A stretch of DNA of 64,000 bases from the human T2T-CHM13v2.0 reference genome, Homo sapiens, in NCBI RefSeq assembly GCF_009914755.1, contig NC_060928.1; one strand, 5' to 3'. Positions 26,261 to 58,950 of this stretch are shown here, piece after piece; positions within the stretch are counted from its first letter, which is position 1; each line of letters starts with the position of its first letter. Position numbers and translations under genes: made by a program. Under the pieces are notes generated by a model. It was not told the DNA's origin. It saw only the letters and a program-made list of their open reading frames with translations, and ran no database searches.

Positions 26261-26765
26261 GCTCCTTGTCAGACAAGATAGAATTTGATGATTGCCCCTG
26301 GTTTTTAACAAGGAGCAATCATCAAATAAGGCAAAATTAGAACAGTATTTTTTTTCTGTTCTTACTTTCTGCTTTTGAGCTGTGTCTTAGATAAATAGAG
26401 GCCTGCCAGATAAATTATTTCTGGATAAATGAGAGACTGTTTTCTTATTTTACATTTGGGAAATTAGAGTCATGGAAATAGGTGGTTTTGCTTTTTTTAG
26501 GTACATCTGTTTTCCCACTGCTGACATAACTTCTAAATTTCAGATCTTTTTCTTTGGTAAACTACACCATGAAATTGATGAAAATGGCTTTATCAATAGT
26601 TTCAGATGCTGTCTGCAAAATAAAGAGGTAAACTCTGCTCCTTTGCTCTTTAGGCATTATTTTCTTTTGGAGGAAATACATGTTTGTCATAGGGCTGCTT
26701 ATTCCCAGGACTCTTAGAAGGAAAGCACATTGTCATGGCTACAGCTGCAGAACAGCTGCTTCTTT

Positions 26766-27106
26766 TTTATTTGTTTTTAGAGGAGGACAACACATTTAGT
26801 TTTATTTTTATCAAATCACAACACTTTCTTTTCCAACTGCTACAAAGTGCATCTACAATATTCTATTACAGATCCACTTTAAAAAGGTTTCCTGTGACAT
26901 TACAGCAAGCCTCTTTTTTCAAACAGGAATAATCCCAAATTCTTCCTCAAATAAAACTAAAAACTCCATTCCAGTAAATGGTAAATACATAAAAATTACA
27001 GTAAGCCAGACACTTAAAAGGACAGCCAAGAAGTCTTCCAACAGTTTATTAGAAAGAATGTAGACATTTAAACAAATCCCCACTGTCATGAACATAAATT
27101 GAGGTT
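26766..27106 (-). pseudogene. Detached distal 3'UTR and poly(A) remnant of the PTGES3 processed pseudogene
   Basis: T-rich tail at 26763-26778, AATAAA on minus ~20 nt before it, left TSD copy ACAGCTGCTTCTTT at 26752-26765 identical to 48046-48059; sequence resembles the PTGES3 mRNA 3' end as recalled. Confidence 0.75.
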
Positions 27107-27122
27107 ACACACATGTATGTTT

Positions 27123-27366
27123 GAGGTTGCAGTGAGCCGAGATTGCACCACTGCACTCCAGCCTGGGTGACAGAGTGAGACTCTGCCTTAAACAAAACAA
27201 AACAAAACACCCACAAAAAGCCAAAAAGGAAACAAAAACGCACCCCAAAGTGATGTTGGTATTACACAGATCTCAAAACCCAGAGAAGTTTGATAGCTCT
27301 TCAATCCCTAGTACATCACTGATGACTCATTGTCATTAGTTTGCAACTGATCTGAAATGCTCCCAG
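27123..27366 (+). repeat. Local ~240-bp duplicate of 28234-28467 (Alu 3' end plus unique flank)
   Basis: Both copies read gaggttgcagtgagccgag...ccccaaagtgatgttggtattacacagatct..aaacccagagaagtttgatag...ctcccag. Confidence 0.92.
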
Positions 27367-27381
27367 GAGTAAATAGTTTGA

Positions 27382-27738
<357 letters not shown>

Positions 27739-27946
27739 TAAAACACACTTTAAAGAATGCGAAATCAAAATAGTCCTTCAGGGCAAAACTTTAAGCAGAT
27801 ATTTAATTGGCCTGATATTTGAGTTTGTGTTCTGAGTCATTTTGGCCTTGAAGGGGGAGAGAAGAGAAATGTAATAGTAGAGGGCGCCTTTATCTTCTGT
27901 CTTTCCACCTACCCTACACACATACATGTATGTTTGTACATATCTA

Positions 27947-28453
<507 letters not shown>

Positions 28454-29272
28454 TCAAAGGCTCCCAGAGCTCTCTGGGATACTAGGAGAGAATGTCCTGA
28501 GATTTTTTTTTAGGGAGCTAGTCAAACCCCTGCTCGGAAACAGGGTTGGACAGTTTTGATAATGGCAGATCACAGGTCAAAGCTCCCAAATTTATATCTC
28601 CTGTCAAGATACTCTTGCTGCCATCGCTAGATTTGCATTTCTGTTACACGGTGACCAAATGTACTCTTAATTTTTTTCTGGTAACCAGAACTTGCTGGTG
28701 GGCATGTATCCTTGGTACGAGTCACTATCACCTCTGGTTATAGCAGTGGAGCAAAGTGGTAACGGGAAAATTCCTAGGTTTTTGGCCTGAGCAAAAGAGT
28801 GGATAGAGGTAAATGACAGGTGGGGAATGTGGGGAGAGAAGCAGGGAGAGTTCAGGCAAAAGAGCTACCATGTCAAGGCCTACAGGTAGGAGTATGGCAC
28901 TTTCAAGGTAATAAGTGAGCTCTGGAGAAATGCCTCACTCTAGGACGTAGTATGTGGGCAACTGAGGAGGTTCAAGAACAAAGTTCAAAAGAGGCCGCCA
29001 GAGATTCATCTAGAGAACCAAGCACTATGGGATTCCCACATCTAAAAATGTTGCCTTCATCCATCCATTCATTCAGTAAACATTTAGCAGTGTAGGACTA
29101 GCATGGTTTGAGGAGGGATGCCCTGGATTTGGAGACCTTAACATGTAACTAGAGAAAACATTGGCATCCTGGGCTGTGGTGGGAACTACCTCCCGACAGG
29201 TAACTCACTGCCAGAGTCAGCAAACTAACATCTGTCTTTTTTCTAACATTTGTATCATATGGAATCACAACT

Positions 29273-30072
29273 TTTTTTTTTTTTTTTTTTTTTTGGAGAC
29301 AGAGTCTTGCTCTGTCACTCAGGGTGGAGTGCAGTGATGCGATCTTAGCTCAGTGCAACCTCTGCCTCCCAGGTTCAAGTGATTCTCCTGCCTCAGCCTC
29401 CTGAGTAGCTGGGACTACAGGCGCCCACCATCATACCCGGCTAATTTTTGTATTTTTTGCAGAGATGGAGTTTCACCATGTTGGCCAGGCTGGTCTCAAA
29501 CTCCTGATTTAAGGTGATCCATCCGCCTCGACCTCCCAAAGTGCTAGGATCACAGGTGTGAGGGAATCACATTTTATACTCCCTTCAAAATACAAGTGTG
29601 TGAAGGAACCAGTGTTTTAATCCAAGCGTGTAAGAATGATTTCAAACAAATGGCGCCCTTTACAAATCAACAAGGAACTACATAAATTTAAAACTTTATT
29701 TTGTGGACAATTCCCATTTACTCTCTTTGTTTTTAGAAAATGGTTAGCCATGGCTGGGCGTGGTGGCTCACGCCTGTAATCCCAGCACTTTGGGAGGCCG
29801 AGATGGATGGATCACCTGAGGTCAGGAGTTGAAGACCACCCTGGCCAAGGTGGTGAAACTCCATCTCTACTAAAAATACAAAATTAGCCGGGCGAGGTGG
29901 TGCATGCCTGTAATTACAGCTACTCCGAGGCCAAGGCAGGAGAATCGCCTAGAACCTGGGAAGGCGGAGGTTGCAGTGAGTTGAGATTGTGCCACTGCAC
30001 TCCAGCCTGGGTGACAGAGAAAGACTCTGTCTCAAAACAAAAAAAAAAAAAACAAAAAAACAAAAACAAAAA
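29273..30072. mobile_element. Divergent Alu pair (minus ~29273-29561, plus ~29752-30072)
   Basis: Alu consensus; TSDs ggaatcaca and aaaa(t/c)ggttagcc. Confidence 0.92.
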
Positions 30073-30199
30073 ACGGTTAGCCTCTTTTATGTTTATTTCA
30101 TTCATGTTTATAAATTTACAACTTGGGCATAATACAGGCATTTGTTTTGTCTTTTCCCCACTTGCTCATATTACAAATGACACAGTATTCCTCCATTGT

Positions 30200-30395
30200 C
30201 CTTTGTGGCGGGTGCAGTTAGATGTCCCCGCGCTGGCATGAGCAGGCCAGGGTTCAAATGCTGCCTTTGTTGCATACCAACTGCAGCTCTGGCATGTAAG
30301 ATGGTAAAAAACAAACAAACAAAACCGCCACCTGCAGAGGACCGTTGTGAGGATTAATGAGGTAGTGTCAGTTTAAGTGCCCCATAACTGGTAGT
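30200..30395 (+). mobile_element. MIR relic
   Basis: gggttcaaat..tgcct... and gttgtgaggattaatgag motifs. Confidence 0.6.
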
Positions 30396-30574
30396 TGCTG
30401 TTTCTGAGTTTATCACGAAACCCCTTATCACGAAAAATTTGTCTCCTTAATCTTTTTTCTTCCTTTCCTGCTTCAATATATCATATGCCTCTGGCAAACC
30501 CATACTCCTGGCGGGCTAGGCGGTTGGATCTTGGCCCCTTCTCTAAGGCTTTTCTTGCAGGTTCCCCCTGCCTA

Positions 30575-30656
30575 TTTATGGGCGGTATAAAAGTTATTGC
30601 GGTTTTTGCCATTAAAAAAAAATCGCAAAACCGCAATTCCTTTTGCACCAACCTAA
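30575..30656. mobile_element. MADE1 (mariner-derived MITE)
   Basis: ~80-bp palindrome aaaagt.attgcggtttttgccatt...gcaaaaccgcaatt.cttttgcaccaacctaa flanked by TA. Confidence 0.88.
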
Positions 30657-30699
30657 TAGATGCTCCAGGCCGAGCTGGGAGGTGTTGGGGTGCACACAA

Positions 30700-31570
30700 G
30701 GAGAGAGGACAGGCTGGCCTGAAGGTCCAGAGAGCCGGCCCGGCAGGGTCAACCCAGCCAGCGGTCACGAAGGGAGGTGGAGTTGGGGGAGGCGACACAG
30801 GGCAGGAAGTGGGGAGGACAAACGGGGTGCACATGGGGACTGTGGCGATGACACAGAAGGGACAGCCGGTTAGAATCTAGGCCCACTTAGGCGATGAAGG
30901 GCAGGTGAAGAAATCCCGTTCCATCTTCCTGTAGTTCCTCCCTTGGGGAGCCCCCATCCTATCCTGCTGTGGACCGGGGCGTCTCCTGGAAGGCCCGCGA
31001 TCGAGATGAGGCTTCCGAGCCGCCCAGAAGGGACTTCGAAGTGTGCGCAGCGGACTCCGCGGTTCCCACGCGCCCCCTAGGGTGGGTGGACGAGCTGGGC
31101 GCCCCCGTGCGGAGAACGGAGGAGGGGTCCGCCATGTAGCTGTTGGAAATGCGGGTGGCCGTGGGGCCCAGCTTGCCGGGCTCCTGGATCCACGTCCAGG
31201 TCGCAGGGGAGGGGCCCGCCGCCCGTTTCTAAGGGCCTGGCTGCATTCCTGCGGTCACGATCAGGGGTCTTTGCTTTCTCCCATCCCCTCCTGGAGAAAG
31301 AACGCAGCTTTTAACGCGTTCTCCTTGGTTGGGCACCTTTCTTGGGAAAGCTCCGCCTACCATTGCCCTTGTACCTGTCCTCTCCTCTCTCCCTTTCCTG
31401 AAGTGACTGCCCGTCTCTTGCACCGTGGTGTGAATGCGTCGAGATCTCGGCGCTGCAGCAGCATCGGAGATTGGATCCAGCCCATGGAGAGGTCCCCAGA
31501 GTCCATTTGTCCGTCCCCAGGGCAGGGGCCTCGGAAGAGCAAGGGGGAGGAGCTGACCTAGCCGGCTGAT
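30700..31570. promoter_or_regulatory. Orphan CpG island (putative promoter/enhancer)
   Basis: GC- and CpG-rich non-repeat stretch; CAGGAAGT ETS site near 30804, CCGCCATGT YY1-like motif near 31129, GC-box-like runs; no recognisable coding exon. Confidence 0.65.
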
Positions 31571-31689
31571 CTTTGTGGCTTAGACAAAATTTAGAGTTTA
31601 TTTGTCCTTCTGACCATGATCTCAGATCAGATGGACAAGATTAGCCTTACACTTAGGAGCGTTCTGGTGCAAGACTAGTGACTTATTTT

Positions 31690-32070
31690 TCCTTCCTTCC
31701 TACCATCCTTCCTTCCTTCCGTTTTTCCTTTCTTCCTCCTGCCCTCCCTCCGTCCCTCCCTTTTTTCCTTCCCTTTCTATCTCTCTCTCATTTTTTTTTT
31801 TTTTTTGACAGGGTCTCACTCTGTTGCTCAGGCTGGAGTGCAATGGCACCATCATAACTCACTGCAGCCTGGACCTCGTGGGCTCAGGTGATCCTCTCAC
31901 CTCAGCTTCCCAAGTAGCTGGGACTACAGGTCCACAAAACCACGCCTGGCTAATTAAATTTTTTTTTTGTAGAGACAGGGTCTCACTATCTTGCCCAGGC
32001 TGGCCTCGAACTCCTGATATCAAGCTATCCTCTCTCCTTGGCCTCCCAAGATGCTAGAATTCCCGGCCAT
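31690..32070 (-). mobile_element. AluJ with (CCTT)n-type pyrimidine microsatellite tail
   Basis: AluJ-type text (cagcctggacctcgtgggctcaggtgatcct, tttttgtagagacagggtctcact). Confidence 0.85.
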
Positions 32071-32523
32071 GACTTTTTTTTTTTCCTTCTTTTTTAACCT
32101 GAAGCTCTATCCCTTGTCAGTAAAGCCAGCAGCTAATGTTTCCTGTCTCACTGTGTGGAGCAAATCTGCAGCCCTGCTGTCATAGCTCTATTGTGAGGAT
32201 CTGTTATACCAGCACCTGTTAACTTGCTTGGCATTTGGAGAAGCTAGGTAAATGTTGTGTGAATGAATAAATGAATGAACCCAGCCAAGTATGTCCCATG
32301 AGCCAAGTACAAGAAGAGTGGACTCTTGTGCTACTCACACTCTGCCTTCATTGTTAAGAAAGGCGCATTTTTCTAACCAAGGCATAAACTCCAAGAGTGG
32401 ATACAATGGACGGGTTAGCCACCTGTTAAGAGAAGTGGAAGTTAAATGATTCATAACATTTTGATTTCAATCTGCTGTCCCACCATTATCAGGTGTATGG
32501 CCATATAAAGAAAATGAAGTTGG

Positions 32524-32880
32524 GGCCAGGCACAGTGGCTCACGCCTGTGATCTCAGCACTTTGGGAGGTTGAGGCGTGCAGATCACTTGAGGTCAGGAG
32601 TTTGAGACAAGCCTGGAGATTATGGTGAAACCCTGTCTCTACTAAAAATACAAAAATTAGCCAGGCCAGGTGGTACTCACCTGTGGTCCCAGCTACTCGG
32701 AGAGGCTGAGGTGGGACAATTGAGGTGGGACAATTGCTTGAACCTGAGGTGGAGGTTACAGTGAGCTGATATTGAGCCACAGCATTCTAGCCTGGGCGAC
32801 ACAGTGAGACTCCATCCCCCACCCCCCCACCCCGCCCACACACACACACACACACACACAAAAGAAGAAAAAGAAATGAA
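32524..32880 (+). mobile_element. Alu with internal 14-bp tandem duplication and (CA)n tail
   Basis: tgaggtgggacaat repeated twice near 32707-32734; C-run and (CA)n at ~32816-32860. Confidence 0.85.
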
Positions 32881-33750
32881 GTTGGATTCTTTAATTGGGG
32901 GACAAGGGTTTAGATAATCCGCAGCATGGACTTTGAGATAGCTTATGTTTGGGGTATTTTCTTTCATACATTTAGTCTCCTAATTATGTGATCAGGCTAA
33001 TTTTTAAGTATTGAGTAATTTTTAGGAGATGTTGAGACTAAGTTGAAAGAAAACCTAGCCCCTGTGCACCATGAGCCTAGAGTTTAGAGCTGAGTTGGCA
33101 TAGTCAACTATGAAAGCTGTTGGGACAGTGGCAATGTTGAAATTCGTAAGAAGAGATCATTGTGAACTGGATATTGATGCAGGATGCCTTAGAAGGTCAT
33201 GGGTTAGGCCTTGAAAGAATGTACAAGAACAAAGGAATTGGGTGTTATTTTATTTTTAAAATTTTATTTACTTTTGAGTCAGGGTCTCACTCTATTGCAT
33301 AGGCTGCAGTACAGTGGCCCGATCACAACACACTGCAGCCTCCATCTCCTGGGCTTAAGTGATCCTCCTGCCTCAGCCTCCCATGTAGTTGGGACTACAG
33401 GTACGCACCATTATGACCAGCTAATGTTTAATGTTTTAATATTGAATTTTAAAAATTTTTGTAAAAAGAGCATTGGAAATGATTTATTTCCAAGATTCAT
33501 GATCGCAGACAATGTGTGGTCAGCAAGTGGTTGTAAAGCAAATCTGTTTTCTCCATGTGACTGGAAGGAAGAAACACTGACAGAAGAGTGAGTTCTTTGG
33601 CTTCCTGATCCTGGCTGAGCCTGTCAGTGCTTCTGTCCCCTCCTTCTTGGCCAGTGGCCGTGTCTCTGGACAGATTCTGTTCTTAGAAGGGTGCTGGTGA
33701 GCCAGAGATGACATATATGCAGAAGTAGGTTTTGAAAAAGTTCAGTGTCA

Positions 33751-36450
<2,700 letters not shown>

Positions 36451-36528
36451 GAAAAAGTTCAGTGTCCTAGAATTGGACTCCCCATGGCTGCAAACTCTCC
36501 TGGGAGCCACTGTAAGCCATGTGTCTGT

Positions 36529-38003
36529 GGGTGTACACACAGAGTGTACACACAATGTGATAGTAGGAGTAATATCTCAGGGTGTACAGCCACTGTGATA
36601 TTATGAATAATATCACAGGGTGTACAGCCACTTAATATTGATATTAAGAGTAATATATCCCTTCAATATATGAATAATATATCCCTTAAATATAAGAATA
36701 GTATAATATAATAATAATATATGAATAATATGAATAATATATGTACACCCCCTGTGATATTAGGAGTAATATCTCCCCTAGATATTATGAACAATACCAC
36801 AGGGTGTACACCCTCTGTGATATTAGGAGTAATATCTCCCTTATATATAAAACGAACGGTACCACAGGTGTACACCAACTGTGATATTAGGAGTAATATC
36901 TCCGTTATATATTATGAATAATGTCAAAGAGTGTACCCCCACTGTGATATGAGGAGTAATATTACCCTTAGATATTATGAATAATAACACAGGGTGTACA
37001 TCCAATGTGATATTAGGAGTAATATCTCCCTTATATATTATAAATAATGTCAAAATGTGTACCCCCACTGTGATATGATGAGTAATATTACCCTTAGATA
37101 TTATGAATAATAACACAGGGTGTACATCCAATGTGATATTAGGAGTAATATCTCTCTTAGATATTAGGAATAATATCACAGGGTATAGAGCCACTGCTAT
37201 ATTAGCATTAAGATCTTTCTTAGATATTATGAATAATATATCACAGGGTGTACACCCACTGTGATATGAGAAGTAATATCTTTCTTAGATATTACAAATA
37301 ATATCATAGGGTGTACACCCACCATGACATTAGGAGTAATAGCTCCCTGAGATATTATGAATAATATCAGAAGGTGTATACCCACTGTGAAATTAGAAGT
37401 AATATCTCCCTTAGATATTACTAGAAGATATTACTTCTAATTTAGTAATATCTCCCTTAGATATTACTTCTAACTTATTAATATCATAGGGTGTACACCT
37501 ACTGTGATATTAGGGGTGATATCTCCCTTAGCTATTATGACTATTGTCACAGGGTGTATAACCACTATGATATTAGGAATAATATCTCCCGTAGATATTA
37601 CAAATAATATCAAAGGGTGTATATACAGGGTATAAACCCACTGTGATATTAGTAGTAATATCTCCCTTAGATATTACAAATAAAATCACGGGGGGACACC
37701 TACTCTGATGTTAGGAGTACTATCTCCTTTAGCTATTACAAATAATATCACAGAGTGTACACCTGCTGTGATATTAAGAGTGATATCTCTCTTAGGTATC
37801 ACGAATAATATCACAGGGTGTACAGCCTCAGCGATATTAAAAGGAATATTTTCCTTAAATATTATGAATAATATCAAACGATGTACACCTACTGTGATAT
37901 TAGGAGTAATGCCTTCCTTAGATATTCCAAATAATATGAAAGGGTGTATACCTAATGAGATATTAAGAATAATGTCTCCCTTAGATACTATGAATAATGT
38001 CAC
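36529..38003 (+). repeat. SATR-family satellite, AT-rich 63-bp unit sub-array
   Basis: Unit GATATTAGGAGTAATATCTCCCTTAGATATTATGAATAATATCACAGGGTGTACACCCACTGT; 126-bp dimer period at 36921/37047. Confidence 0.85.
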
Positions 38004-41000
38004 CCCACTGTGATATTGTTCATAATATCCAAGCGGGAAGAGCATGATATTACTGCCAATATCGCAGGGGGTGTACACCTTCCTGTGATATTGTTCATAA
38101 TATCAAGGAGGGGAGAGGTTGATATTAATTCTAATATAGCTGGGGTTGTACACATCCCTGTGGTACTGTTTGTAATATACAAAAGGGGAGAATATGATAT
38201 TATTCCCAATATTGCAGGAGGTGTACACCTCCCCGTGATATTGTTCATAATGTCCAGGGGGCAGAAGATGATATCACTGCCAATATCGCAGGGGGTGTAC
38301 ACCTTCCTATGATATTGTTCCTAATAACCGGGGGGAAGAGGATGATATTACACGCAACATCACAGGGGCTGTACGCCCCCCCATCATATAGTTTGTAATA
38401 TTCAGGGGGAAAGAAGATGATATTACTCCCAATGTCACAGGGTTTGTATACTTCTATGTGACATTGTTCGTAATATCCGGGGGTGGGGTGGGGAGAGAAT
38501 GATATTACTCCCAATATTGCAGAGGCTGTACACCCCCCTCTGATATTGTTTGTAATATTTAGGAAGGAGAAAATGATATTACTCCCTATATCGCAGGGGG
38601 CTGTACACCCCTCTGTGATATCATTCGTAATATCCAGAAGAAGACAGGATGATATTACTCCCAATATCGCAGGTGGTGTACACCCCTCTGTGATATTGTC
38701 CATAATATCCAGGTTGGAGAGGATGATATTATTTCCCATATCGCATTGTGTGTACACCCCCCTGTAATATTGTCCATAACATTCAAGGCTAAAGAGGATG
38801 ATATTATTCTCCATGTCGCAGAGTGTGTACAGCCTGCTGTGATACTGTTCGTATCATCCAGGGAGGGAGAGGATGATATTTCTCCCCATATCGCAGGTGG
38901 TGTACACCCCCTTGTGATATTGTCCGCAACATCCGGGGTGGGGAAGGATATTAATCCCCATATCGCAGAATGTGTACACCCCCCTGTAATATTGCCCGTA
39001 ACATCCAGAAGGGGAGGGGATGACATTACTTCCCATATTGCAAGGCGTGTTCACCCCCCTGTAAAATAGTCCATAACATCCAGAGGGGGAGGGGATGATA
39101 TTGCTCCCCATATCGCAGGGGAATATTGTCCCCTGTGATATTGTCCGCAACATCCGGGGCAGGGGAGGATGATATTAATCCCCATATCACAGAATGTGCA
39201 CACCCCCCTGTAACATTGTCGGTAACATTCAGAGGGGGAGGGGCTGATATTACTCCCCATATCGCAGGGGGTGTACAACTTCCTGTGATATTGTCCGTAA
39301 TATCCAGGGAAGAGAGGATGATGTTCCTCCCCATAAACAACCTGCGATATTGTCCATAATATCCAGGGAGGGAGAGGATGGTGTTATTTTCCATATTGCA
39401 GGGAATGTACACCCCACTGCGATACTGTCCGTAATAACCAGGGGTGGAGAGGATGATGTTACTCTTTATTTCACAAGGAATATACACCCCCCTGCGATAT
39501 TGTCCGTAATAACCAGGGGTGGAGAGGATGATGTTACTCTTTATTTCACAAGGAATATACACCCCCCTGCGATATTGTCCGTAATAACCAGGGGTGGAGA
39601 GGATGATGTTACTCTTTATATCACAAGGAACATACACCCTCCTGCGATGTTGTCCGTAATAACCAAGGGTGGAGAGGATGATGTTACTCTTTATATCACA
39701 AGGAACATACAACCCCCTGCGATATTGTTCGTAATATCCAGGAGGAGAGAGGATGATGTTACTCCCCATATCGCAGTGGGTGTACACACCCCTGCGAAAT
39801 TGTTTGTAATATCCACGGGGGGAGGAGATGATGTTACTCCCCATATTGCCAGTAGTGTACATCCCCCTGCATATTGTTCATAATACTCAGGGGGAGAGAA
39901 AATGATATTACTCCACATATCGCAGGGGATGTACACACCCCTGCAATATTGTTCGTAATATTTGGGGGGGAGATGATGATATTACTCCCCATATCGGAGG
40001 GGGTGTATACCCCACTGCGATATTGTTAATAATATCCAGGGGGGAGATGATGTTATTCCCAATATCGTAAACACCCTTCGTGTACATTTTCTGTGACATT
40101 GTTTGTAATATCCAGGGTGGCAGAGGATGATATTCCTCCTAATATCGCAAGATTTATACACTCTCTTTTGATGTTGTTCGTAATATCCAGGAGAGGAGAG
40201 GGTGATATTACTCCAAATATCATAGGGGGATACAACCCCCTGTGATATTGTTCGCAATATTCAGGGGAGGAGAGGATATTACTCCCCAGATAGCAGGGAG
40301 GGTACACTCCCCTGGGATATTGTTCATAATTTTCAGGGGTGGGAGAGAATGATATTACTCCCAAAATCACAGGGGGTGTACACCCCCCTGTGATATTCTT
40401 TGTAATATCCAGGGGTGGAGAGTATGATATTACCCTCAATATCGCAGAAAGTGTACACCCCCTTTGTTATATTGTTCGTAATATCCGGGGCGGGGGGAGG
40501 AGACAATGATATTACTTCCAATATCGCAGGGGCTGTACACCCCCCTGTGATATTATTGCTAATATCCAGTGGGGGAGAAGATGATATTACTCCCAATATC
40601 ACAGGGGGTGTACACCCTTCTGTGATAGTATTCGTAATATCTAGGTGGGGAGAGGATGATATTACCTCCAATATCGCAAGGCCTGTACACCCTCCTGTGA
40701 TGTTGTTCATAATATCCAAGGGGGTAGAGGATGATATTATTCCCTGTATCGCAGGGGATGTGGACCCCCTGTGATATTGTTTGTAATATCCAGGAGGAAA
40801 GAGGATGATATTACTCCCAATATCGCAGGTGGTGTACACACCCCTGTGACATTATTCCTAATATCCAGCGGCAGGGGAAGGATGATATTACTCCCAATAT
40901 TGAAAGAGGTGTACACACCTCTGTGATATTGTTCGTAATATCCAGGTGGGGAGAGGATGATATTACTCCCAATATTGCAGAAAGTGTACACCTCCCTGTG

Positions 41001-42088
41001 ATATTGTTTGAAATACACAGACGGAGAGAAGATGATATTACTTCCCTGTGATATTGCTTGTAACATGCAAAAGGGAAGAGGATGATACTACTCCCCATAT
41101 CGCATGGGGTGTACATTCACCTTTGACATTGTTCGTAATACCCGAGGGGGAGGATAATATTACTCCCAATATCGCAGCAGGTGTACACACCCAGTGATAT
41201 TATTCGTAATATCTAGGGGAAAGAGAATAATATTACTCCCAATATCGCAGGGGGTGTACATTCTCCTGTGATATTGTTCATAATATCCAGGGTGGGAGAG
41301 GATGATACTACTCCCAATATCGCAGAGGGTGTACACCCAACTCTGATATTGTTCGTAATGTCAAGTGGGGAGAGGATGATATTACTTCCAATATCACAGA
41401 GGGTGTGCACTCCCATGTGATATTGTTCATAATACCCGGGAGGAGGAGAGGATGATATTACTGTCAATATCCAATATCACAGGGGGGGAACACCCCACTG
41501 TGATATTGTTTGTATTATCCAGAGGGGGAGAGGATGATATTACTTTCAATATCGCAGATGGTGTATGCCCCTTTGTGATAGTGTTCATAATATACAGGGG
41601 GGGGAAGAATGATATTACTCCCAATATCACAGGGGGTGTACACACCTTTTGTGATATTGTTTATAATAGCCAAGGTAGGAGAGGATGATATACGAACAAT
41701 ATCGCAGGAAGTGCACACCCCCCTGTGATATTCTTCGTAATATCCAGGGGGTAACAGGATGATATTACTCCCAATATTGCAGGGGGTTTACACTCTTCTG
41801 TGATTTTTTTTAATGTCCTGGGGGGAGAGAATGATATTACTGTTAATGTCACAAGCGGTGTACACCATTTTTGGTGATATTGTTCCTAATATCGAGGGGG
41901 GGAGAGGATGATATTACTCCCAATATCGTAGGTTGTGTACACACAGCCTGTGATATTGTTCCTAATAGCCAAAGCGGGAGAGGATAATATTACTTTCAAT
42001 ATCGCAGGGGATGTACACTTACAGAGTGATATTGCTCCTAATATCCAGGCCAAAAGAGGATATTACTCTTGATATCGCAGAGGGGGAC
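38004..42088 (-). repeat. SATR-family satellite, ~75-bp unit sub-array in reverse orientation
   Basis: Unit GATATTGTTCGTAATATCCAGGGGGGAGAGGATGATATTACTCCCAATATCGCAGGGGGTGTACACCCCCTGT; exact 75-bp period at 39451/39526/39601/39676. Confidence 0.9.
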
Positions 42089-45000
42089 ACTCCCCTGCAA
42101 TATAGGGAGTAATATCATCCTCTCCCCCCGGAAATTATGAACAATATCACAGGTGGGTGTACACACCCTGCGATATTGGGGGTAATATCATTTTCTTTCC
42201 ACCAGGATATTACACACAATATCACAGAAGGGTTTACATCCCCCTGCGATATTGGGAGTAATATCATCCTCTCTCCCCTCTCTAGATATTAGCAACAATA
42301 TCACAGGTGGGTGTACACCTGCTGTGATATTGGGAGTAATATCATCCTTTTCACCCCCTGGATATTAGGAACAATATCACAAGGGGTGTGTACACCCCCT
42401 GCGATATTTGGAGTAATATCATGCTCTCCCCCTCCCCGGATACTACAAACAATATCACAGGGGAGTGTACACACCCTGAGATATTGGGAGTAATATCATC
42501 CTCTCCTCTCCTGAATATTATGAACTATATTGCAGAATGGTGTACACCCCCTGTAATATTGTGAGCAATATTATCTTCTCCCTCCCTGGATATTATAAAC
42601 AATATTACAGGGGGTGTACAACCCCTGAGATATTGGGAGTAATATCATTTCCCCCCCAGTGGATATTATAAACAATATCACGGAGGTTTGGGCCCCCTGG
42701 GATATTGAAAATAATATCATCCTTCCACCCCCTGAAAATTATGAACAATATCACAGGAGAGTGTACACTCCCTGCGATATGGGAAGTAATATCATTTTCT
42801 CCTCCTCTGGATATTAGGAACAGTATAACAGGAGGGTTTACACATCCTGCCATATTGGGAGTAATATGCTCTGCCACCCTGGATATTACAAACAGTATCA
42901 CAGAGGATGTACACACAGAATGTTTACGATACTGGGAGTAATATCTCCCCCCCATCCGGACATTACAAACAATATCGTAGCGGGTGTACACCCCCCTCGA
43001 TATGAAAAGGAACATCATCTCCTTTCCCTGTGGATATTATGAACAATATCACAGGGGTGTGTATACCCCCTTTGATATGGGGAGTAAAATCATCCTCTCC
43101 CCCCTTGGATATTATGAACAATATCGCAGTGGCATGTAGATTTCCTGTGACATGAAGAGTAATATCGTCCTCTCGCCCCCTGGTTATTACGGACAATATC
43201 GCAGGGGGGTGAACGCTCCCTATGATGTGAAGAGTAACATCATCCCTTCCCCCCTGGATATTATGGACAATATCGTAGGGGGGTGTACAACCCCTGGGAT
43301 ATGGGGAGCAACATCATTTTCTCCCTCCCCGGATGTTACCAACAATATCTCAGGGGGTTGTACACTCCCTATGATGTGAAGAGTAACATCATCCTTTCCC
43401 CCCTGGATATTATGGACAATATCGTAGGGGGGTGTACAACCCCTGGGATATGGGGAGCAACATCATTTTCTCCCTCCCCGGATGTTACCAACAATATCAC
43501 AGGGGGGTGTACACTCCCTGGGATATTGGGGGTAATATCATCCTCTTTTCCCCTGGATATTACGAACAATTTCACCGGGTGGAGTACACCTTCTATGATA
43601 TTGGGAGTAATATTATCCTCTCCCCTTATGGAAATTGCGAACAGCATCCCGGAAGGTGTACATTCCCTGCGATGTTCGGAGTAATATCATCCTCTCCTCA
43701 CTGGATATTTGGAACAATATAAAAGGGGGTATACACCCCCTGCAATAGTTGGAATAATATCATCCTCACTCCCCTTGGATATTATGAACCATATCACAGG
43801 GGGGTGTACGCCCCCTGCGATACTGAGAGTAATATCATCCTCTACCATTCTGGACATTATGACGTATATCACAGGGGGGTGTACACCCCCTATGATATTG
43901 GGAGTAATATCATCGTCTTCCCCGTGGATATTAGGAACAATATCACAGGAGGGTGTACACCGTTTGTGATATTGGTAATAATATCATCCTCTCCCCCTTC
44001 TGGATATTATGAACAATATCACAGGGGGGTGTACACCCACTGCGATATTGGGAGTAATATCATCCTCTCCTTCCCTGAAAATTACAAAGAATATCATGGG
44101 GTAGGGTGTACACCTTCTGCGATATTGGGATTAGTATCTTCCTCTCTCTCCCTGCTTATTACGAACAATATAACAGGAGGTTGTACACCCCTGCGATATT
44201 GTGAGTAATATCATCCTCTCCCTTCCTGGATATTACGAACAACTTCACAGGGGGATGTACACCCCTTGCGATATTAGTAGTAATATCATCCTCCCTCCCG
44301 GATATTCCCAACAATATCAGAAGGGTGTGTACACCACCTTGATAGTGGGTGTAATATCTTCCTCTCCCCCTTTTATTACTACAAACAACATCACAGGGGG
44401 GTGTACACCCCCTGCAATATTGGAAGTAGTATCAATTGGAAGTGAACAACCCTTGCGATATTGAGAGTAATATCATCCTAACCCCTTGTGGATATTACAA
44501 ACAATATCACTGGGGGGTGTTCACACAGCATGTTTCCGATATTGGGATTAATATCATCCTTTCCTCCCCTGGATATTACGAACAATATCACAGGGGCCTG
44601 TACACCCCCTGGGATATTGGGAGCAATATCATCATCTCTCCCCATGGATATTACAAATAATGTTACAGGGGGATGTACACCCCTGTGATATTCGGAATAA
44701 TATTGTCCTCTCCCTCTCTGGATATTATGAGCAATGTCACAGGGGGCTGTACACCCTTTGCGATATTGGGAGTAATATTATTTTCTCCCCTTCTGGATAT
44801 TACGAACGATATCACAAGAAGGTGTACACCCCCTGCGATATTGTTGAGTAATGTCATCCTCTCCCCACCCCGGATATTGCGAACAATATGACAAAGTTGT
44901 ACACTCCCTGGGATATTGGGAGTAATATCATCCTCTTCTCCCCTGGATATTATGAACAATGTCACGGGGGGTGTACACCCCTAGCGATATTGGGAGTAGT

Positions 45001-47040
45001 ATCATCCTCTCTTCCCTTGAATAACGCGAACAATATCAGAGGGGAGTGTTCATCCCGGGTGATATTGGGAGTAATATTATCCGTTCCCTTCCTGAAAAAT
45101 ATGAACAATATCACAGAAGGTGTACACCCCTGCGATATTGGGAGTAACATCATCCTTTCCCACCCTGAGTATTATGAACAATATCACAGGGGGGTGCACA
45201 CCCCACTCGATATTGGGAGTAATATCACCCTCTTCCTCCTAGATATTACGAACAATATCACATAGGGGTGTACACCCTCTGTGATATTAAGTGTAATATT
45301 ATACTCTTCCCCCTTGGATATTATGAACAATATCCCAGGGGGGTGTACACCTCCTGCGATATGGGGTGTAATAGCATCCTCTCCCCTTTTGGATATTATG
45401 AAAAATATCACAGGGGGGTGTACAACCCCTGTGATATTGGGAGCAACATAATTCTTTCCCCCCTGGATATTTCAAAAATATCACAAGGGGATGTACACCC
45501 CTTATGATGTTTGTAGTAATATCATCCTCTCTCCCCTGGATATTACGAACAATATCACAGGAGGGTGTACACTCCCTGGGATATTGGGAGTAATATCATC
45601 CTCTTTCCCCCTGTATATTACGAACAATATCACAGGGGCGTGTACACCCCCTGCGTATTGAAAGTAATATCATTCACTTCCCCCCTGGATATTGTATATC
45701 ATATCACAGGGGCGTGTACACCCTCTGCTACATTGGGAGAAATATCATCGTCTCCTCCCGTGGATATTATGAGCAATATCACAGGGGAATGTACCCCGCC
45801 TGCGATATTGGGAGTAATATCCTCTCCCACCCTGAATATTACAAACAATATCATAAGGGGGTGTACATCCCCTGCGATATTGGGAGTAATATCCTTTTCC
45901 ACCCTGAATATCATGAACAATATTATAGGAGAATGTACACCACCTGCGATATTAAGAGTAATATCATCCTTTCCCCCCATGGATATTACAAACAATATCA
46001 CAGTGTTGTGTACACCCCCTGTGATATTGGGAATAATTTTATCCTCTCCCCCCGCTCGATATTATGAAAAATATCACAGGAAGGTGTACATTCTCTGTGA
46101 TATTGGCAGTTATATCATCCTCTGTTCTAGTTAATATTACGAAGACTATCACAGGGGTATGTACACCTCCTGAGATATTGGGAGTAATATCATCCTATCT
46201 CCCCCTGGAAATTAGGAACCATATCACAGGGGAATGTACATACCCTGCAATATTGGGAGTAGCATCATCTTACCCTCCCCTGCTCTTTACAAATAGTATC
46301 ACAAGGGGCTGTACACCCTCTGCAATATTGAGAGTAATATCATCCTCTCTTCCCCTGGATATTACGAACAATACAGCAGGGGGTGTACACACAGGGTTTT
46401 TATGATATTGGGAGTAATATCATTCTCTCCCCGCCCTGGATATTTCGAACAGTATCACAGGGGTTGTACACTCCCTGCGACATTGGGAGTAACATCATCC
46501 TCTCCTTCTCTTGATATTACGAACAATATCACAGCAGAGTGTACATCCCCTGCGATATTGGCAGAAATATCAACCTCTCCCTCTCTGGATATTACCAGCA
46601 ATATCATAGGGGGTTGTACACCCCCTTCAACACTGGGAGTTATATCATCCTCTCCTCCCACTGGATATTATGAAAAATATTACAGAAGGCGTACACACAG
46701 GGTGTTTACGATATTGGGAGTAATATCATCTTCCCCCTCCCTGAATATTATGAACAATATCACGGGATGGGGTACATCCCCTGTGATATTGAGAGTAATG
46801 TCACCCTCTCCCTTCCTGGATATTATAAACAATATCACAGGGGGGGTGCACACCCCTCCTATATAGGGAGTAATGTTATCCTCTCCCCCTCCCTGGATAT
46901 TTCGAACAATATCACAAGGGGAATGTACTCACCCTGCGATATGGAGACTAATGTCATCCTCTCCCTCCCTGGATATTATGAATAATATCACAGGGGGGTG
47001 TGCACTCTCTGTGCTCTGGGGAGTAATGTCATTCTCTCCC
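42089..47040 (+). repeat. SATR-family satellite, ~75-bp unit sub-array in forward orientation
   Basis: Unit GATATTGGGAGTAATATCATCCTCTCCCCCCTGGATATTACGAACAATATCACAGGGGGGTGTACACCCCCTGC (reverse complement of the previous block). Confidence 0.9.
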
Positions 47041-48045
47041 CTATAAACTAAAATTTTGTTCTCTTTATCTAAGCCCAGAGCTTCCTATCACGTCAGTATC
47101 TATGTTATGAAGAAAAGGAGACTTAGGTGAGATGTTTTTATTTATCACAACTGCTGCATCAATTGCCTAGGACCTCAACAGCTTCATGAAAGTCTGGGAA
47201 ATGTTCATGCATAAGGTTATTGCCTTAGCTGACTTCAAATTGCCCCATACAATGGTACATATAAACCCTTAGTGAAGCCTTTTAAAAAACAAACAGGTTG
47301 AAAAATGGGTTAAAGTAGGCAAATACAGCATCTGCCTTTAGGGCTATCAACTGAGGAATTCTCTCAATTATGAAATCTTGCGGAGAAGTTATTTTCTTTC
47401 TCAAAATCCAGGTGATGAAATATTTCTTACTCCAGATCTGGCATTTTTTCATCATCACTGTCTTGTGAATCATCACCTGCTTCATCTACTTCTGGTAAAT
47501 CTACATCCTCATCCCCACCCATGTTGTTCATCATCTCGGAGAAACGATCAAAATTAGACCTGTCTTCATCTGAACCATCTTCCCAGTCTTTCCAATGATT
47601 GAAGTCCATACTAAGCCAGTTAAGCTTTGCCCTTTCTTTTGTTAACCTTGGCCATGACTGGCCAGATTCTCCTTTTCGTAAACAACATAAAATTGATCTG
47701 TCCGTTCTTTTATGCTTGGAATCATTTGGATCAATAGAGTAAAAAAGACCAATTTCATTTAAATGCTTAAAATTATCACTTCCTCCAAGACAACTGAATG
47801 TAAGTTTGGATTTTTCAAAATTTACATTAACATCCTTATTGTCTTCAACACAAGATTCAGTGAAGACACAGTCCCTTCGATCGTACCACTTTGCAAAAGC
47901 AGGCTGCATTGTGAATGCGGCAGGGGGACGGGCGAACGGGTGGGCGGGCGGCTGTCTGGCGGCGGCTGCTCTCCGGTGGGGACTCCGCGTTTTCTCCCTG
48001 GTCGCCGCTGCCTCTTCTCGCTCCCCTCAGGCGACGGCGGCAGCT
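47041..48045 (-). pseudogene. PTGES3P3: PTGES3 (p23) processed pseudogene, 5' part: 5'UTR, intact ORF 47427-47909 and proximal 3'UTR
   Basis: Intronless 160-aa ORF ~91% identical to recalled human p23 (MQPA.AKWYDRR...DEKMPDLE); GC-rich 5'UTR to ~48045; TSD at 48046-48059. The P3 symbol is inferred from its recalled position next to HPF1. Confidence 0.9.
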
Positions 48046-48235
48046 ACAGCTGCTTCTTTATACGTTTTTCTGCTTAGATCAGGGAAAACTGGCTGGATTA
48101 AATTAGCCACAGGAGGGCTCCACTGCAGTTTCTGGAAAAGAAAATTCTGCAGTCATACTTTCTGGTACACAGTTGTATCTGTGCAGTCTTCAATCGGCCA
48201 CGCCTATTTATAAACGTGAAAGATGAAGCCAGGGT

Positions 48236-48574
<339 letters not shown>

Positions 48575-49915
48575 TTAACAAAAATTCGAGAGAACTTTCT
48601 GGAAACCTAGAGTATATTTCTGTGGGAAAAACACAAAATTGAGACTTGAAATGATAAGCTCTGATTTGTTCATTTTTTTAATCTTAAACATTTAAAGTTT
48701 CACAGCAACAGCTTATATTCAGGGTATGCAATTTATAGGTAGCTAATGCATGAAAAATATGATTACAGTTTTGTATTACCCATTATTTTTCTCTTGTCAA
48801 CCACAAAGAATTTCATTATTATCTAATCTGTGGCCCAGATGCTGCCTGTCTTTGTTTCATCTATAACAGCATTTCCTATCATGTGGCTACAGGATAATAA
48901 TTGTGATTACAAAAGGAAAAAAGTACAGGAACTCACAGGTGAAACAGAACTGAACACAACTTTTACAGAACTCATCAGCTCCTCACTGTAAATCTCCTAG
49001 ATTGGACTCTCATGTACCTTTTTTTTTTTTCCTTTTTTCCTTGAAACATTTGCTGCTCTTTTTAGAAATCACAAACAGGGTTTCAAAAGTTATTAAAAAA
49101 AAAAAGCCTGAAGAAAGAATCCAAAATTTGAGACCATACCTACTCTAAGAAGTGGTGAAAACCACATGGAAAAATATCAAGTATTTTGTGTCTAATGCTT
49201 TCAGAATTCCCTCTTGTACTTCACTCACAGGAGAAGTTATAGGAACCCCTACAGGAATTACAATGACAGGGCCAGACCCAGGAACAGCCTGCACACTCGA
49301 GTTTTGAAGTTTTAACTCATTCTCTCTCCAGCTGTCTCACACTTGTTGTTTGTTGTTTTGTTCGTTTCTTTCTAATTTAGAAAAAAAAAAAGTAGTAGTC
49401 AGGGAGTCTAGTCAAATACATCGGAGTTGGGGGGAATTATTAGATACCCAAATCTTAGTGATGCATTTGACTATTTTTCGGGATGAAAAGCATATATGGG
49501 TAGACATTGGCTTGGAGGGGAAATGGTGACACAGGAGAGATGAAGGAGCAGCACTTTGAAGTTGATTTTTGAAGAAAAACCATTAGTTTTCATCATTGTA
49601 TAAGGACATCACTCTATGAATCATAGCAATAGGCAATTTGCAATTTAAAAAATAAATAAAAAGGCATCCTTGTGGCTAAATGGCAGTTTAGATTACAGTT
49701 CCTAAGGCCCACTGAAAATCATAAGCTACTGTCTTTCCTGAGCACATAAATGAATTTTTCTTCCATTTTGACAGCTCTATCCCTCCAGGTCATCCAGCTA
49801 TTTTATCCCTTAATATTGGCTACTCTTCCTCCTCTCTCAGACGTCTCACTTTTTGCACCCAGCCCCCAAACACACTAAAAGATTAAACTCAAGCAGCCTT
49901 CCCTATTGGGAAACC

Positions 49916-50218
49916 TTTTTTTTTTTTTTTTGAGACAGAGTCTTTGCTCTGTCGCTCAGGCTGGAGTGCGGTGGTGCCATCAATCTCGGCTCACTGCGAC
50001 CTCTGCCTCCCGGCTTCAAGCGATTCTCCTGCCTCAGCCTCCTGAGTAGCTGGGATTACAGGGACACACCACCATGCCTGGCTAATTTTTGTATTTTTAG
50101 TAGAGACTGGGTTTCACCATGTTGGCCAGGCTAGTCTCAAACTCCTGGGCTCAAGTGATCCACTTGCCTCAGCCTCCCAAAAGTGCTGGGATTACAGGTG
50201 TGAGCCACTGTGCCCAGC
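49916..50218 (-). mobile_element. AluS element
   Basis: Alu consensus with T-tail. Confidence 0.92.
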
Positions 50219-50925
50219 CCCCTACTGGAGACTTTTGATGGGCATTTTTATTTATCTAATTACGGAAAAGGAAAGTAACAAAAATGAACTGTGCAGATAG
50301 AGACTCTCCTCATATAGGAGTTGTTAGATCAAATCCTGCTTCCAAAATAAAGAAATAAAGAGGTGAAATGAAGACAGGGTTGAGCTGAAGAAAATTTCAT
50401 GCAGTTAGCACTAGGGGAAGTGGGAGAACATAGATGGAAGCAGCACCTACTGGATGTGCTCTTTTGTGAAAGGTGCTTAATGGCTGCTCACTTTGGAGAT
50501 GACTGAGTCCAAACTGCCTCATCTAATTCTTCAAGTCATCTTCCATCTGCCTGTTAAGCAGTAACAGGCCTCCTGAGATTATTCCCTTATGTCAAAATGG
50601 GATGTCATGTTAATCCACACCATGACCATTTTGTATCTTTCTTCCCTTTGTTTTCCAGTTTATAACACTTTCCACCTCTACCTCTCATTCTGGAAAATTC
50701 TCCCATGCTCTAGACTTGAATCTCTGATACTTCACCTCCCACTTATGTGAACTTGGGCGTGTTACTTGATATTGCTATGCTTCAATTTTCTTATGTGTAA
50801 CTGCAGATAATAATAGTCCCTACCTCATAAAGTTGTTACAGAGATTAAGTAATAATATGCATGTAAAACATCGATTGAGCTATTATTACACAGCCTTTAA
50901 GATTCAAGTTCAAATCCCACTTCCA

Positions 50926-51237
<312 letters not shown>

Positions 51238-52235
51238 CCAAATCCCACTTCTTCGTAAAGTCATCTCCAATACTCCCCAATGGAAAGGGCAGTTTCCTTC
51301 GCTGATTTATTGTAGCACTTACTGTCCTCACGGACAACAAGGCCCTTAGCATACATGGTCTTGTGGTCTAATTGTGTACATCTTTTCTCATCTGAACTAC
51401 AGGGAAATTTTTTGGATGGTAGGGAGTGTGTCTTCTTGCAGTATCTAGCACAGTGTTCAGCATACAGCAGATATTTAATAAATAATTATTAAATCAAAAA
51501 GTCAAATGGATATTTTAATGAATTGGTTGAATGAATCAATGATTTAGGGGGTCAAAGCCAGTTTTGCAACTCTTAATTCATTGCCCACATGAAAGGCATA
51601 AAAGTGTCTGGCATCAATTAGAATGGCTGAAGAGGATTTTTGGAGAATTCAGTCCCTGGGAACCAGAAGCACCTAAGTGAGGGGGTGTCCAGTTGTGGGA
51701 GTGGAAGGCCAGAAATGAGAGAGAGAAGCCACAAGCCTCCTGTTCCTGTGCAGACCTTAGCTGAGAGGGAAGACTTTAACTTTTAATGAAGATTACAGTT
51801 TTACTTATTGCACTAGACTGGACATATTCATCACTGAACCGAGACTAATTTTTAATGATGACATCATCGGAAGACTTTTTGTTATTTGACAGTGACTAAG
51901 AGCTAAGTGATTCATCTTAGTTTTTATCTGAACAGTAGAGGAAGAACCAGCCCAAAAGATGGATTCGAATGGCCAAGTGAGAAAACAACATTGTCTCCTC
52001 ATTTCATCTCAGGAGCCCCACTGTTAATGCAATGGTGTCATGAGGTTGATTTAGTGTCTGCAGATCCTGGCCTGTTGGACAGCAGGCAGGAATGCCTGGA
52101 ATGCCAGGCAGAGGTAGAAGTGTTTGTAGGGAGAGGAATAAAACTATCAAAGGGAAGCAGAGGTCATGAAATGATGACCTGCTCCTGGCAGAAAGGGGAC
52201 CCTGCCACGTAGCCATCAGCTCACTCCCATCCACC

Positions 52236-52714
<479 letters not shown>

Positions 52715-53097
52715 TAGGCTCTCAGGAGAGTTCTGATTCTTTCAAATGTCCATTAGATTGTTTGTTTTTAATGTTTCTATTGGGATGCAATTGTCAGTTG
52801 TGCTTCTGCACAAACAGAACCCCTTTTATTCCATGGGATATTTTCAGAGAAGTCATTGCGCAGTATCTTTCACAGAACGAATTGCTCTTATAACCGGTTT
52901 GCTTACAGGTCACACCTGCAGCTGGCAAGCCTTGAGAGTTTACCATTTATAGAAGCTGCACCTGAGATCCATTTGGACTGCTGCTTGCAAATTATTACAT
53001 GTGAAATTATGAACTCTAACTTAAGCGTTCCTTGGAATTGTCTTAGGAAGAGAAAGATGCATTTTGATGGCTGGGGAAGGTAGGAACCAAGTAGACT

Positions 53098-53413
53098 TGT
53101 TTTCTTTTTGTTTTTTTCTGTGTTTTTTTTTTTTTTTTTGAGACAGAGTCTTGCTCTGTTGCCCAGCCTGGAGTGCAGTGGTGTGATGTCGGCTCACTTC
53201 TACCTCCATCTCCTGGGTTCAAGTGATTCTCCTGCCTCCTGAGTAGCTGAGATTACAGGCATGTGCCACCACACCTGGCTAGTTTTTGTATTTTTAGTAG
53301 AGACGGGGTTTCACCATCTTGGCCAGGCTTTTCTTGAACTCCTGATCTCATGATCCATCCCCGTCAGCCTCCCAAAGTGCTGGGATTACAGGCGTGAGCC
53401 ACCATGCCCAGCC
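53098..53413 (-). mobile_element. AluS element
   Basis: Alu consensus, TSD agacttgttt. Confidence 0.9.

Positions 53414-53797: not shown

Positions 53798-54119
<322 letters not shown>

Positions 54120-56431: not shown

Positions 56432-56714
<283 letters not shown>

Positions 56715-57179: not shown

Positions 57180-58950
<1,771 letters not shown>

What the first reader, a model, noticed from the sequence alone, without database searches (positions are those of the whole stretch)
36529..47040. Satellite unit is built from three nested palindromes
Seen: each unit is GATATT-N6-AATATC, a pyrimidine spacer, a second GATATT-N6-AATATC, then ACAGGGGGTGTACACCCCCTGT/C. The idealised core AATATCACAGGGGGTGT|ACACCCCCTGTGATATT is a perfect 34-bp palindrome, and its AATATC/GATATT arms can pair in two alternative registers. 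The 63-bp and ~75-bp unit types differ in spacers and loops but keep the stems. Established: this resembles the SATR1/SATR2 satellites, reported near primate segmental duplications and rearrangement breakpoints. Inference: about 140 units (estimated from length) form a dense cruciform/hairpin array or a multimeric site for a dimeric DNA-binding protein, which could mobilise neighbouring DNA such as the block it terminates.
Basis: partly seen in the sequence, partly recalled or inferred. Interest (0 to 1): 0.7.

Follow-up and report, generated by a model that had tools for sequence, protein, structure and literature searches.

The report
Palindromic satellite ending a pasted-in block
This is an old, decaying array of the known primate SATR1 satellite, built from mirror-symmetric units, and it forms one end of a 20-kb block pasted into the middle of a pseudogene; its mirror centre likely acted as a weak spot for breaks rather than as a structure kept by selection.

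Summary
Window 36529-47040 holds about 141 units of a known satellite; published SATR1 primers match the 75-bp consensus with 0 and 1 mismatches. The unit is one ~59-bp imperfect palindrome, with a small hairpin in each arm, plus a 16-bp pyrimidine spacer. The array flips strand twice, both times at the palindrome core. Pairing is not under selection: stems mutate like loops within base class, compensatory changes are not in excess, and no perfect arm reaches 14 bp. Across fetched SATR arrays, 5-40-bp deletions cover the palindrome centre about twice as often as chance (22 of 51 vs 12.5; p about 0.002, weakening to 0.08-0.13 under the harshest collapsing). Locally, PTGES3P3 is split by a ~20-kb insert (27107-47040): one 14-bp target-site duplication encloses both halves, 415 bp of target are lost, and the array is the insert's right end. 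The block has a ~9%-diverged relative beside a SATR array on chr7. A chr9 copy of the HPF1 region also ends inside the array. Verdict: known family and known association with duplication junctions, with an unusually clean new junction and a testable fragility signal. A functional cruciform or dimeric-protein array is not supported.

The parts
26752..26765 (.). Left copy of the 14-bp target-site duplication of the PTGES3 retrocopy, followed by its decayed poly(T)
   Evidence: longest common substring with 48046-48059; positions counted from the printed flanks
26775..27106 (-). Unannotated 3' end of the PTGES3P3 3'UTR (left half of the split pseudogene)
   Evidence: 95% to chr2 retrocopy L012:2939-3272; 94% to chr12:56631341-56631656
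27107..27366 (+). Templated junction piece: ~16 bp like 27916-27940, then a copy of 28234-28467
   Evidence: 86.9% self match; junction printout
27367..32833 (+). Duplicated block shared with chr7:100.816-100.821 Mb, where it also abuts a SATR array
   Evidence: 87% over 5525 columns; 9.1% substitutions; chr7 array follows directly
27918..34011 (+). Same block as copied to chr9:14.985-14.991 Mb (minus strand)
   Evidence: 8.7% substitutions over 27918-32833
34069..36464 (.). 5'-inverted L1 fragment with its own target-site duplication; a separate insertion ending ~65 bp before the array
   Evidence: sequence; absent at this place in the chr9 copy; coordinates from the hub's mask; the L1 label is recalled
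36529..38000 (+). Domain A: ~20 AT-rich 63-bp units, with 38-bp short units at 36538-36640 (likely SATR2, not tested)
37990..38015 (.). A/B strand switch inside the core palindrome, with loss of ~10-14 bp of its centre
   Evidence: decoder offset 14; sequence
38001..42085 (-). Domain B: ~55 SATR1 75-bp units, reversed; recent tandem copies at about 39398-39697
42072..42100 (.). B/C strand switch at the palindrome centre, in register (offset +1)
   Evidence: 2.3% of 300 simulated random flips are both in register and at the core
42086..47040 (+). Domain C: ~66 SATR1 75-bp units; ends in the pyrimidine spacer of its last unit, at the insert's right junction
47041..48044 (-). 5' part of PTGES3P3 (right half), directly abutting the array; 415 bp between the halves are missing
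48046..48059 (.). Right copy of the retrocopy's target-site duplication

Best explanation
This is a decaying SATR1 satellite array (with a 63-bp, likely SATR2, domain) whose unit is a ~59-bp imperfect palindrome plus spacer, and it is the right end of a ~20-kb block inserted into the pseudogene PTGES3P3; the palindrome centre likely acted as a break and template-switch hotspot when units were younger, and the block likely arrived by repair-type copy-and-paste. Shown: unit anatomy; SATR1 primer match; two strand flips at the core; no conservation of pairing; the split pseudogene with one target-site duplication, 415-bp loss, no duplication at the insert ends, 1-2 bp microhomology and a templated piece at the left junction; related blocks on chr7 and chr9 that also meet SATR arrays; excess of centre-covering deletions. 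Inferred: hairpins forming on single-stranded DNA during replication or repair stalled or broke the copy. Because any two units are inverted repeats of each other over the core, template switching there flips the strand. Copying that started or ended in such arrays (break-induced or synthesis-dependent repair) carried neighbouring DNA along. About 9% substitution divergence would date the events to stem catarrhines, roughly 30-40 million years ago (calibration recalled). Today the array is likely methylated, silent chromatin (CpG decay; family-level KRAB-ZNF binding in print).
For: Primers. Symmetry: 44 of 75 positions pair about one axis, against 30 for the next best. Neutral decay: 85.6% to consensus, 75.6% pairwise; C>T 0.137 and G>A 0.122 against A>G 0.046 and T>C 0.040; stems equal loops; chr4-chr9 paralogous units differ at 112 of 942 sites (11.9%) against 878 of 10631 (8.3%) in flanks, stems no lower. 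Insertion. Related junctions: the chr7 block runs straight into an array at the core; the chr9 copy includes HPF1 introns and ends in the array, has no match to 47030-49900 among 40 scored candidates, and its distal flank had no second match among 40 scored. Deletion hotspot: 26 of 56 cover position 64 against 14.0 expected, p=2e-4; decoder unbiased in 473 simulated deletions; unchanged by microhomology weighting or leaving out any one locus; 22 of 51 against 12.5, p=0.002, after merging events with flanks >=82% alike. The B/C flip is in register at the core.
Against: The insert's right breakpoint (47040) lies in the spacer, not the palindrome. The deletion excess weakens to p=0.012 (18 of 44) and 0.075 (14 of 37) at looser merging, and to 0.05 (15 of 38) and 0.13 (12 of 31) when look-alike events are collapsed by position alone. 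The G6/C5 runs coincide with the centre and were not separated from it as a cause. Of 16 direct strand switches in the fetched loci and the window, only 6 are in register within 2 bp, and up to 5 of those 6 may be one ancestral event; the other 10 are off by 10-24 bp. Present-day units keep 19 of 25 pairs on average and no perfect arm reaches 14 bp. A permanganate/S1 study reports inverted-repeat motifs depleted of signal genome-wide and names SST1, LSAU and VNTR-148, not SATR, as enriched in the passages read (its Fig. S17 not seen). The donor of 32834-36528 was not found, and no outgroup primate could be examined.
Confidence: 0.62

Rival explanations
1. Passenger and homology sink. The palindrome is a frozen accident of the founding unit. 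Arrays end duplications because they are large, dispersed, 75-85% identical targets for ectopic repair, and deletions cluster at the centre because of the G6/C5 runs, not hairpins.
For: Right junction in the spacer. 10 of 16 direct flips are out of register. The distal 56 chr9 units are not colinear with B or C, as expected if two different arrays were joined. The deletion excess fades under strict collapsing. One exact 27-bp motif has 151 matches genome-wide.
Against: The C7 run of the spacer is the least deleted part (7 of 56 against 14.0), so a G/C run alone does not attract deletions. Microhomology weighting does not remove the excess. Both flips here are at the core.
Confidence: 0.26
2. 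Functional array: selection keeps the stems as cruciforms or as repeated sites for a dimeric protein.
For: Real 59-mers still fold better than shuffles (mean z -2.6; 58% below -2; 117 units). SATR1 is the top repeat of ZNF445 (519 of 4178 average peaks, FDR 2e-75) and is bound by ZNF141.
Against: No stem conservation or compensatory change within the array or between chr4 and chr9 copies. The array diverged faster than its flanks. ZNF445 in-vitro motif scores >=6 occur at 2.45 and 1.21 per kb in B and C against 2.06 in flanks. C2H2 KRAB proteins do not need palindromes (established knowledge). The folding signal is what a decaying palindrome leaves.
Confidence: 0.07
3. The unit is the relic of a tiny palindromic DNA-transposon derivative (MITE-like), and a transposase acting on unit ends moved the block.
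For: The unit is a terminal-inverted-repeat-like palindrome plus spacer. Satellites derived from MITEs are known in other animals (recalled).
Against: The insert has no target-site duplication (best shared word 5 bp), a 415-bp target loss and a templated junction. The array is at one end only. No transposon library was available to test a match.
Confidence: 0.05

Closest known systems
SATR1 satellite (with SATR2)
   Same: Published SATR1 consensus primers match the 75-bp unit. GC 0.42-0.47 in B/C against a mean of 44% reported for macaque SATR1. Inverted sub-arrays and bordering duplications are reported in macaque.
   Different: The internal 59-bp palindrome, the neutral decay of its stems and the centre-biased deletions were not found described in the searches run (listings and abstracts; passages). 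Repbase/Dfam entries could not be read.
Xiao/DA core duplicons (SATR-HERVE-SATR, OR7E) at 8p23.1 and other loci
   Same: A duplicative insertion whose breakpoint maps in SATR, with loss of target DNA (PMC5088589 passages; PMC2700803).
   Different: No OR7E is annotated here and the flanks share only Alu/L1 with the fetched chr2:71 and chr4:8.9 Mb loci (their identity as Xiao loci is recalled). The array is at one end only. The cargo is a chr7-related block. ~9% divergence suggests an older event than Xiao's 25-18 Myr.
Palindrome-mediated instability (PATRR-type cruciforms; fold-back inverted duplication)
   Same: Centre deletions and strand switches at a symmetry axis. B31-34 and C13-16 are colinear mirror relatives (score 16.4 against a null maximum of 12.9 in 200 permutations).
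   Different: PATRRs are single, near-perfect palindromes hundreds of bp long (recalled). Here arms are ~29 bp, interrupted, decayed and repeated ~120 times.
KRAB zinc-finger targets (ZNF445, ZNF141)
   Same: Family-level ChIP enrichment on SATR1.
   Different: Binding at this locus is untested and the in-vitro ZNF445 motif is not enriched.

Membership tests
SATR1 | Sequence match to the SATR1 consensus | tested here: met
   Primers designed on the SATR1 consensus (PMC3606032 supplement) match the 75-bp majority unit with 0 and 1 mismatches; 43 and 33 sites within 2 mismatches in the array, 0 in the flanks
SATR1 | Full-length alignment to the Repbase/Dfam model, or RepeatMasker label at this locus | not testable with these tools
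   No repeat library held; the Rfam scan gave 0 matches
SATR1 | Dispersed tandem arrays at many interstitial loci, GC near 44% | tested here: met
   151 exact matches of one 27-bp motif, 100 listed on chr2-chr11; GC
SATR2 | Match of the 63-bp domain to the SATR2 consensus | not testable with these tools
   No SATR2 sequence found in papers; SATR1 primers miss the 63-bp unit by 3-4 bases; 63-type tracts adjoin 75-type tracts at other loci, as SATR1-SATR2 mixed arrays do in print
Xiao/DA element | OR7E core | tested here: not met
   None in the hub's annotation; no long non-Alu/L1 match to loci L016-L019
Xiao/DA element | SATR-HERVE-SATR flanks at both ends | tested here: not met
   The array is at the right end only and continuous from 36529 to 47040; the left end is a templated unique piece
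Duplicative transposition with target deletion (core-duplicon type) | Copy elsewhere at high identity, inserted at a new site | tested here: met
   chr7 block at 87%; insert sits between two halves of one retrocopy with a single target-site duplication
Duplicative transposition with target deletion (core-duplicon type) | Loss of target sequence and no target-site duplication | tested here: met
   415 bp missing; best shared word at the insert ends is 5 bp
Duplicative transposition with target deletion (core-duplicon type) | Empty site in an outgroup primate | not testable with these tools
   No relatives held for this genome (header)
Cruciform-forming palindrome (PATRR-like) | Long near-perfect arms | tested here: not met
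   1 perfect arm of 12 bp and 0 of >=14 bp in 10.5 kb; flanks 0.30 per kb at >=14
Cruciform-forming palindrome (PATRR-like) | Extrusion in vivo or in supercoiled DNA | not testable with these tools
   Needs S1/permanganate or 2D-gel data
Selected structural or protein-site array | Lower substitution in stems; compensatory changes | tested here: not met

The most novel reading that the evidence does not exclude
The SATR1 unit is a built-in fold-back and template-switch cassette. Its 59-bp palindrome makes every unit both a hairpin and an inverted partner of every other unit, so SATR arrays, not the ERV or OR7E parts of Xiao/DA, are the active seed of a class of primate duplications. The chain chr7:7.19 Mb - chr7:100.82 Mb - chr4:173.13 Mb - chr9:14.98 Mb would record successive SATR-ended copy-and-paste events, one of which duplicated the HPF1 region.
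Probability: 0.25. Interest if true: 0.75.

Novelty: new member of a known kind. Interest (0 to 1): 0.42.

Why it matters
The 8p23.1 paper states that how SATR-bearing core duplicons drive instability is open. This locus gives a base-resolved, directional insertion, because the split pseudogene preserves the pre-insertion target. It has no ERV or OR7E core, so the satellite is the feature it shares with Xiao/DA. The centre-biased deletions give a cheap genome-wide test of whether the unit's palindrome is the cause. The work also shows that the stems are not under selection, which removes the functional-cruciform reading.

Tried and rejected
Selection on stems: rejected. In one search, 5 of 117 rows were dropped as >=90% identical recent copies and 6 CpG-related columns were excluded. 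Raw stem conservation is an A/T-versus-G/C effect. Canonical G-quadruplex motifs: 0 on either strand. Rfam families: 0 matches, although miR-3683 is reported as SATR1-derived. ZNF445 motif enrichment: none. The ZNF141 motif could not be obtained. Unit-level orthology of B or C with the chr7 array: none above null. A perfect fold-back origin of B and C: only a 4-unit mirror run, offset by about 18 units. A general rule that SATR flips are in register: not established. Window 51300-64000 search: uninformative, since it missed even the self match. Source of 32840-33740 other than chr9: not found among 40 scored candidates. Prior description of the split PTGES3P3 or the chr9 copy: not found in searches (listings only). 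Supplements not seen that may bear on novelty: macaque SATR paper, PDAL-Seq Fig. S17, KZFP Fig. S7, file 1 of PMC5088589. Earlier scan findings were not available.
Full report
Observation. The array is real and lies at the stated place. Decomposition gives three domains: A, 63-bp units, plus strand, 36529-38000; B, 75-bp units, minus strand, 38001-42085; C, 75-bp units, plus strand, 42086-47040. Together they hold 141 units of at least half length. Exact GATATT-N6-AATATC occurs 93 times, and other spacings from 3 to 11 once in all. The symmetry is wider than described. The two small hairpins are reverse complements at 15 of 18 positions, so the unit is a ~59-bp imperfect palindrome centred on TGTACA plus a 16-bp pyrimidine spacer; the 63-bp type is ~56 bp plus 7.

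Identity. Primers designed on the SATR1 consensus (PMC3606032, supplement row and passage) match the 75-bp unit with 0 and 1 mismatches and hit only the array within the window. One 27-bp motif has 151 exact matches genome-wide. The 63-bp type is probably SATR2, but no SATR2 sequence was available to test this.

Is pairing selected? No. Units average 85.6% to consensus and 75.6% to each other, with only a few recent tandem copies. A/T columns change far less than G/C columns, which makes the AT-rich stems look conserved. Within base class, and without 6 CpG-related columns, paired and unpaired columns do not differ (A/T 214/2897 vs 90/1101, p=0.42; G/C 380/1882 vs 354/1770, p=0.90). Compensatory double changes number 27 against 30.5 in permutations (112 of 117 rows kept). 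Thirteen unit pairs orthologous between chr4 and chr9 differ at 11.9% of sites against 8.3% in flanks, stems no lower than loops. Present units keep 19 of 25 pairs on average and still fold better than shuffles (mean z -2.6), but no perfect arm reaches 14 bp.

Is the palindrome a weak spot? Partly shown. Both strand flips here lie in the core. B/C is in register (offset +1), which 2.3% of 300 simulated random flips achieve at the core. A/B lost 10-14 bp of the centre. I decoded 16 other loci, chosen from the first 100 pattern hits (favouring loci with both strands) and from BLAST hits. Of 25 switches listed, 16 are direct; 6 of those are in register, up to 5 of them possibly one ancestral junction, and 10 are off by 10-24 bp. 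So flips give no general rule. Deletions say more. Of 56 distinct 5-40-bp deletions (two paralogous loci left out), 26 cover unit position 64 against 14.0 expected (p=2e-4), while 7 cover the spacer. The decoder shows no such bias on 473 simulated deletions. Microhomology weighting and leave-one-locus-out do not change this. Starting from all 60 deletions and merging those whose flanks suggest common descent gives 27/57, 22/51, 18/44 and 14/37 (p=0.0002, 0.002, 0.012, 0.075) at thresholds 0.85, 0.82, 0.80 and 0.78; the background 95th percentile is 0.81. Collapsing by position alone gives p=0.05 and 0.13. The G6/C5 runs remain a confound.

The block it terminates. The sequence right of the array is PTGES3P3, starting at 47041 with no poly(A). 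Two other retrocopies continue past that point. The missing 3' end is at 26775-27106. One 14-bp target-site duplication (26752-26765, 48046-48059) encloses both halves, 415 bp between them are lost, the insert has no duplication of its own, and its junctions show 1-2 bp microhomology. So 27107-47040 was inserted into the pseudogene. Its left end is a templated copy of an internal piece. Then comes a block 87% identical to chr7:100.816-100.821 Mb, which there runs straight into a SATR array, then a separately inserted L1, then the array. The right breakpoint is in the spacer of the last unit, not the palindrome. A chr9 copy (14.97-15.01 Mb) carries HPF1 introns, the left flank, the left junction, the block, units near A8-A16 and B18-B33, then 56 non-orthologous units. 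It has no match to the right flank among 40 scored candidates. Since HPF1 is the intact gene here, chr9 is likely the derived copy. DNA upstream of the chr7 block matches chr7:7.195 Mb, between further SATR hits. Divergences are 9.1%, 8.7% and 9.5%; a stem-catarrhine age is an inference from recalled rates.

Mechanism. Most likely (0.62): palindromic units formed hairpins in single-stranded DNA and served as inverted homology for one another, producing centre deletions and flips, and repair-type copying that ended in such arrays moved neighbouring DNA. Hairpin formation and causation of the insertion are inferred. The passenger model (0.26) is the main rival. A selected cruciform or protein-site array (0.07) fails its tests. 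ZNF445 has SATR1 as top repeat (PMC10547255 Table S2 row) and ZNF141 binds SATR1 (passages), but the in-vitro ZNF445 matrix (PMC13444138 supplement) is not enriched here.

Known and new. SATR at duplication breakpoints with target loss is published for 8p23.1 (passages and supplement passages). Xiao/DA structure and age come from PMC2700803 (part 1 of 4 and passages). Inverted SATR arrays bordered by duplications are described in macaque (passages and section 7 part 1). This locus is not Xiao/DA. The unit's internal palindrome, the deletion bias and the split pseudogene were not found in searches (listings and abstract starts), which do not cover Repbase/Dfam or most subscription papers. Other papers were seen as passages only. 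Verdict: new member of a known kind, interest 0.42.

Noticed in passing
window 48664-51221 (at least): 97-99% identical, inverted, to chr4:173.236-173.240 Mb, about 86 kb away: a recent local inverted duplication starting 1.6 kb right of the array. Its far end was not determined.
   Followed up: partly
window 26775-27106: The 3' end of PTGES3P3 is unannotated; the annotated pseudogene (47156-48043) is only the 5' part of a retrocopy that now spans 26752-48059.
   Followed up: yes
G000:C9:14.97-15.01 Mb (L014, L036-L038): ~90% copy of the HPF1 region that ends in the SATR array; the array there holds its own L1 and ends at an LTR-like element (element labels recalled).
   Followed up: partly
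window 33734-36469: The same ~16-bp word occurs three times, before the Alu, between Alu and L1, and after the L1: an Alu and then an L1 appear to have inserted at the same site.
   Followed up: no
window 30680-31500: CpG-rich stretch with the annotated enhancer (31254-31754) lies inside the inserted block and has paralogues on chr7 and chr9, so the insertion brought a candidate regulatory element 17 kb upstream of HPF1.
   Followed up: no
window 39398-39697 and 43224-43521: Near-identical recent tandem copies (B33-B36, 87-99%; C16-C19, 95-100%) suggest these spots may vary in copy number among people.
   Followed up: no
L016, L019, L020, L023, L025, L027-L029, L031, L037: Many SATR1 arrays show a distinct 'head' unit subtype right after minus-to-plus switches, and an AT-rich ~300-bp degenerate tract at several plus-to-minus switches, suggesting a shared ancestral head-body-tail layout.
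   Followed up: partly
L016-L019, L034: 63-type tracts at other loci carry a recurring 13-bp internal duplication, giving a 76-bp variant not dominant in this window.
   Followed up: no
75-bp unit: The two halves of the unit (34 and 41 bp) begin with the same hairpin and end alike, hinting that the unit is a diverged dimer of a ~37-bp ancestor.
   Followed up: no
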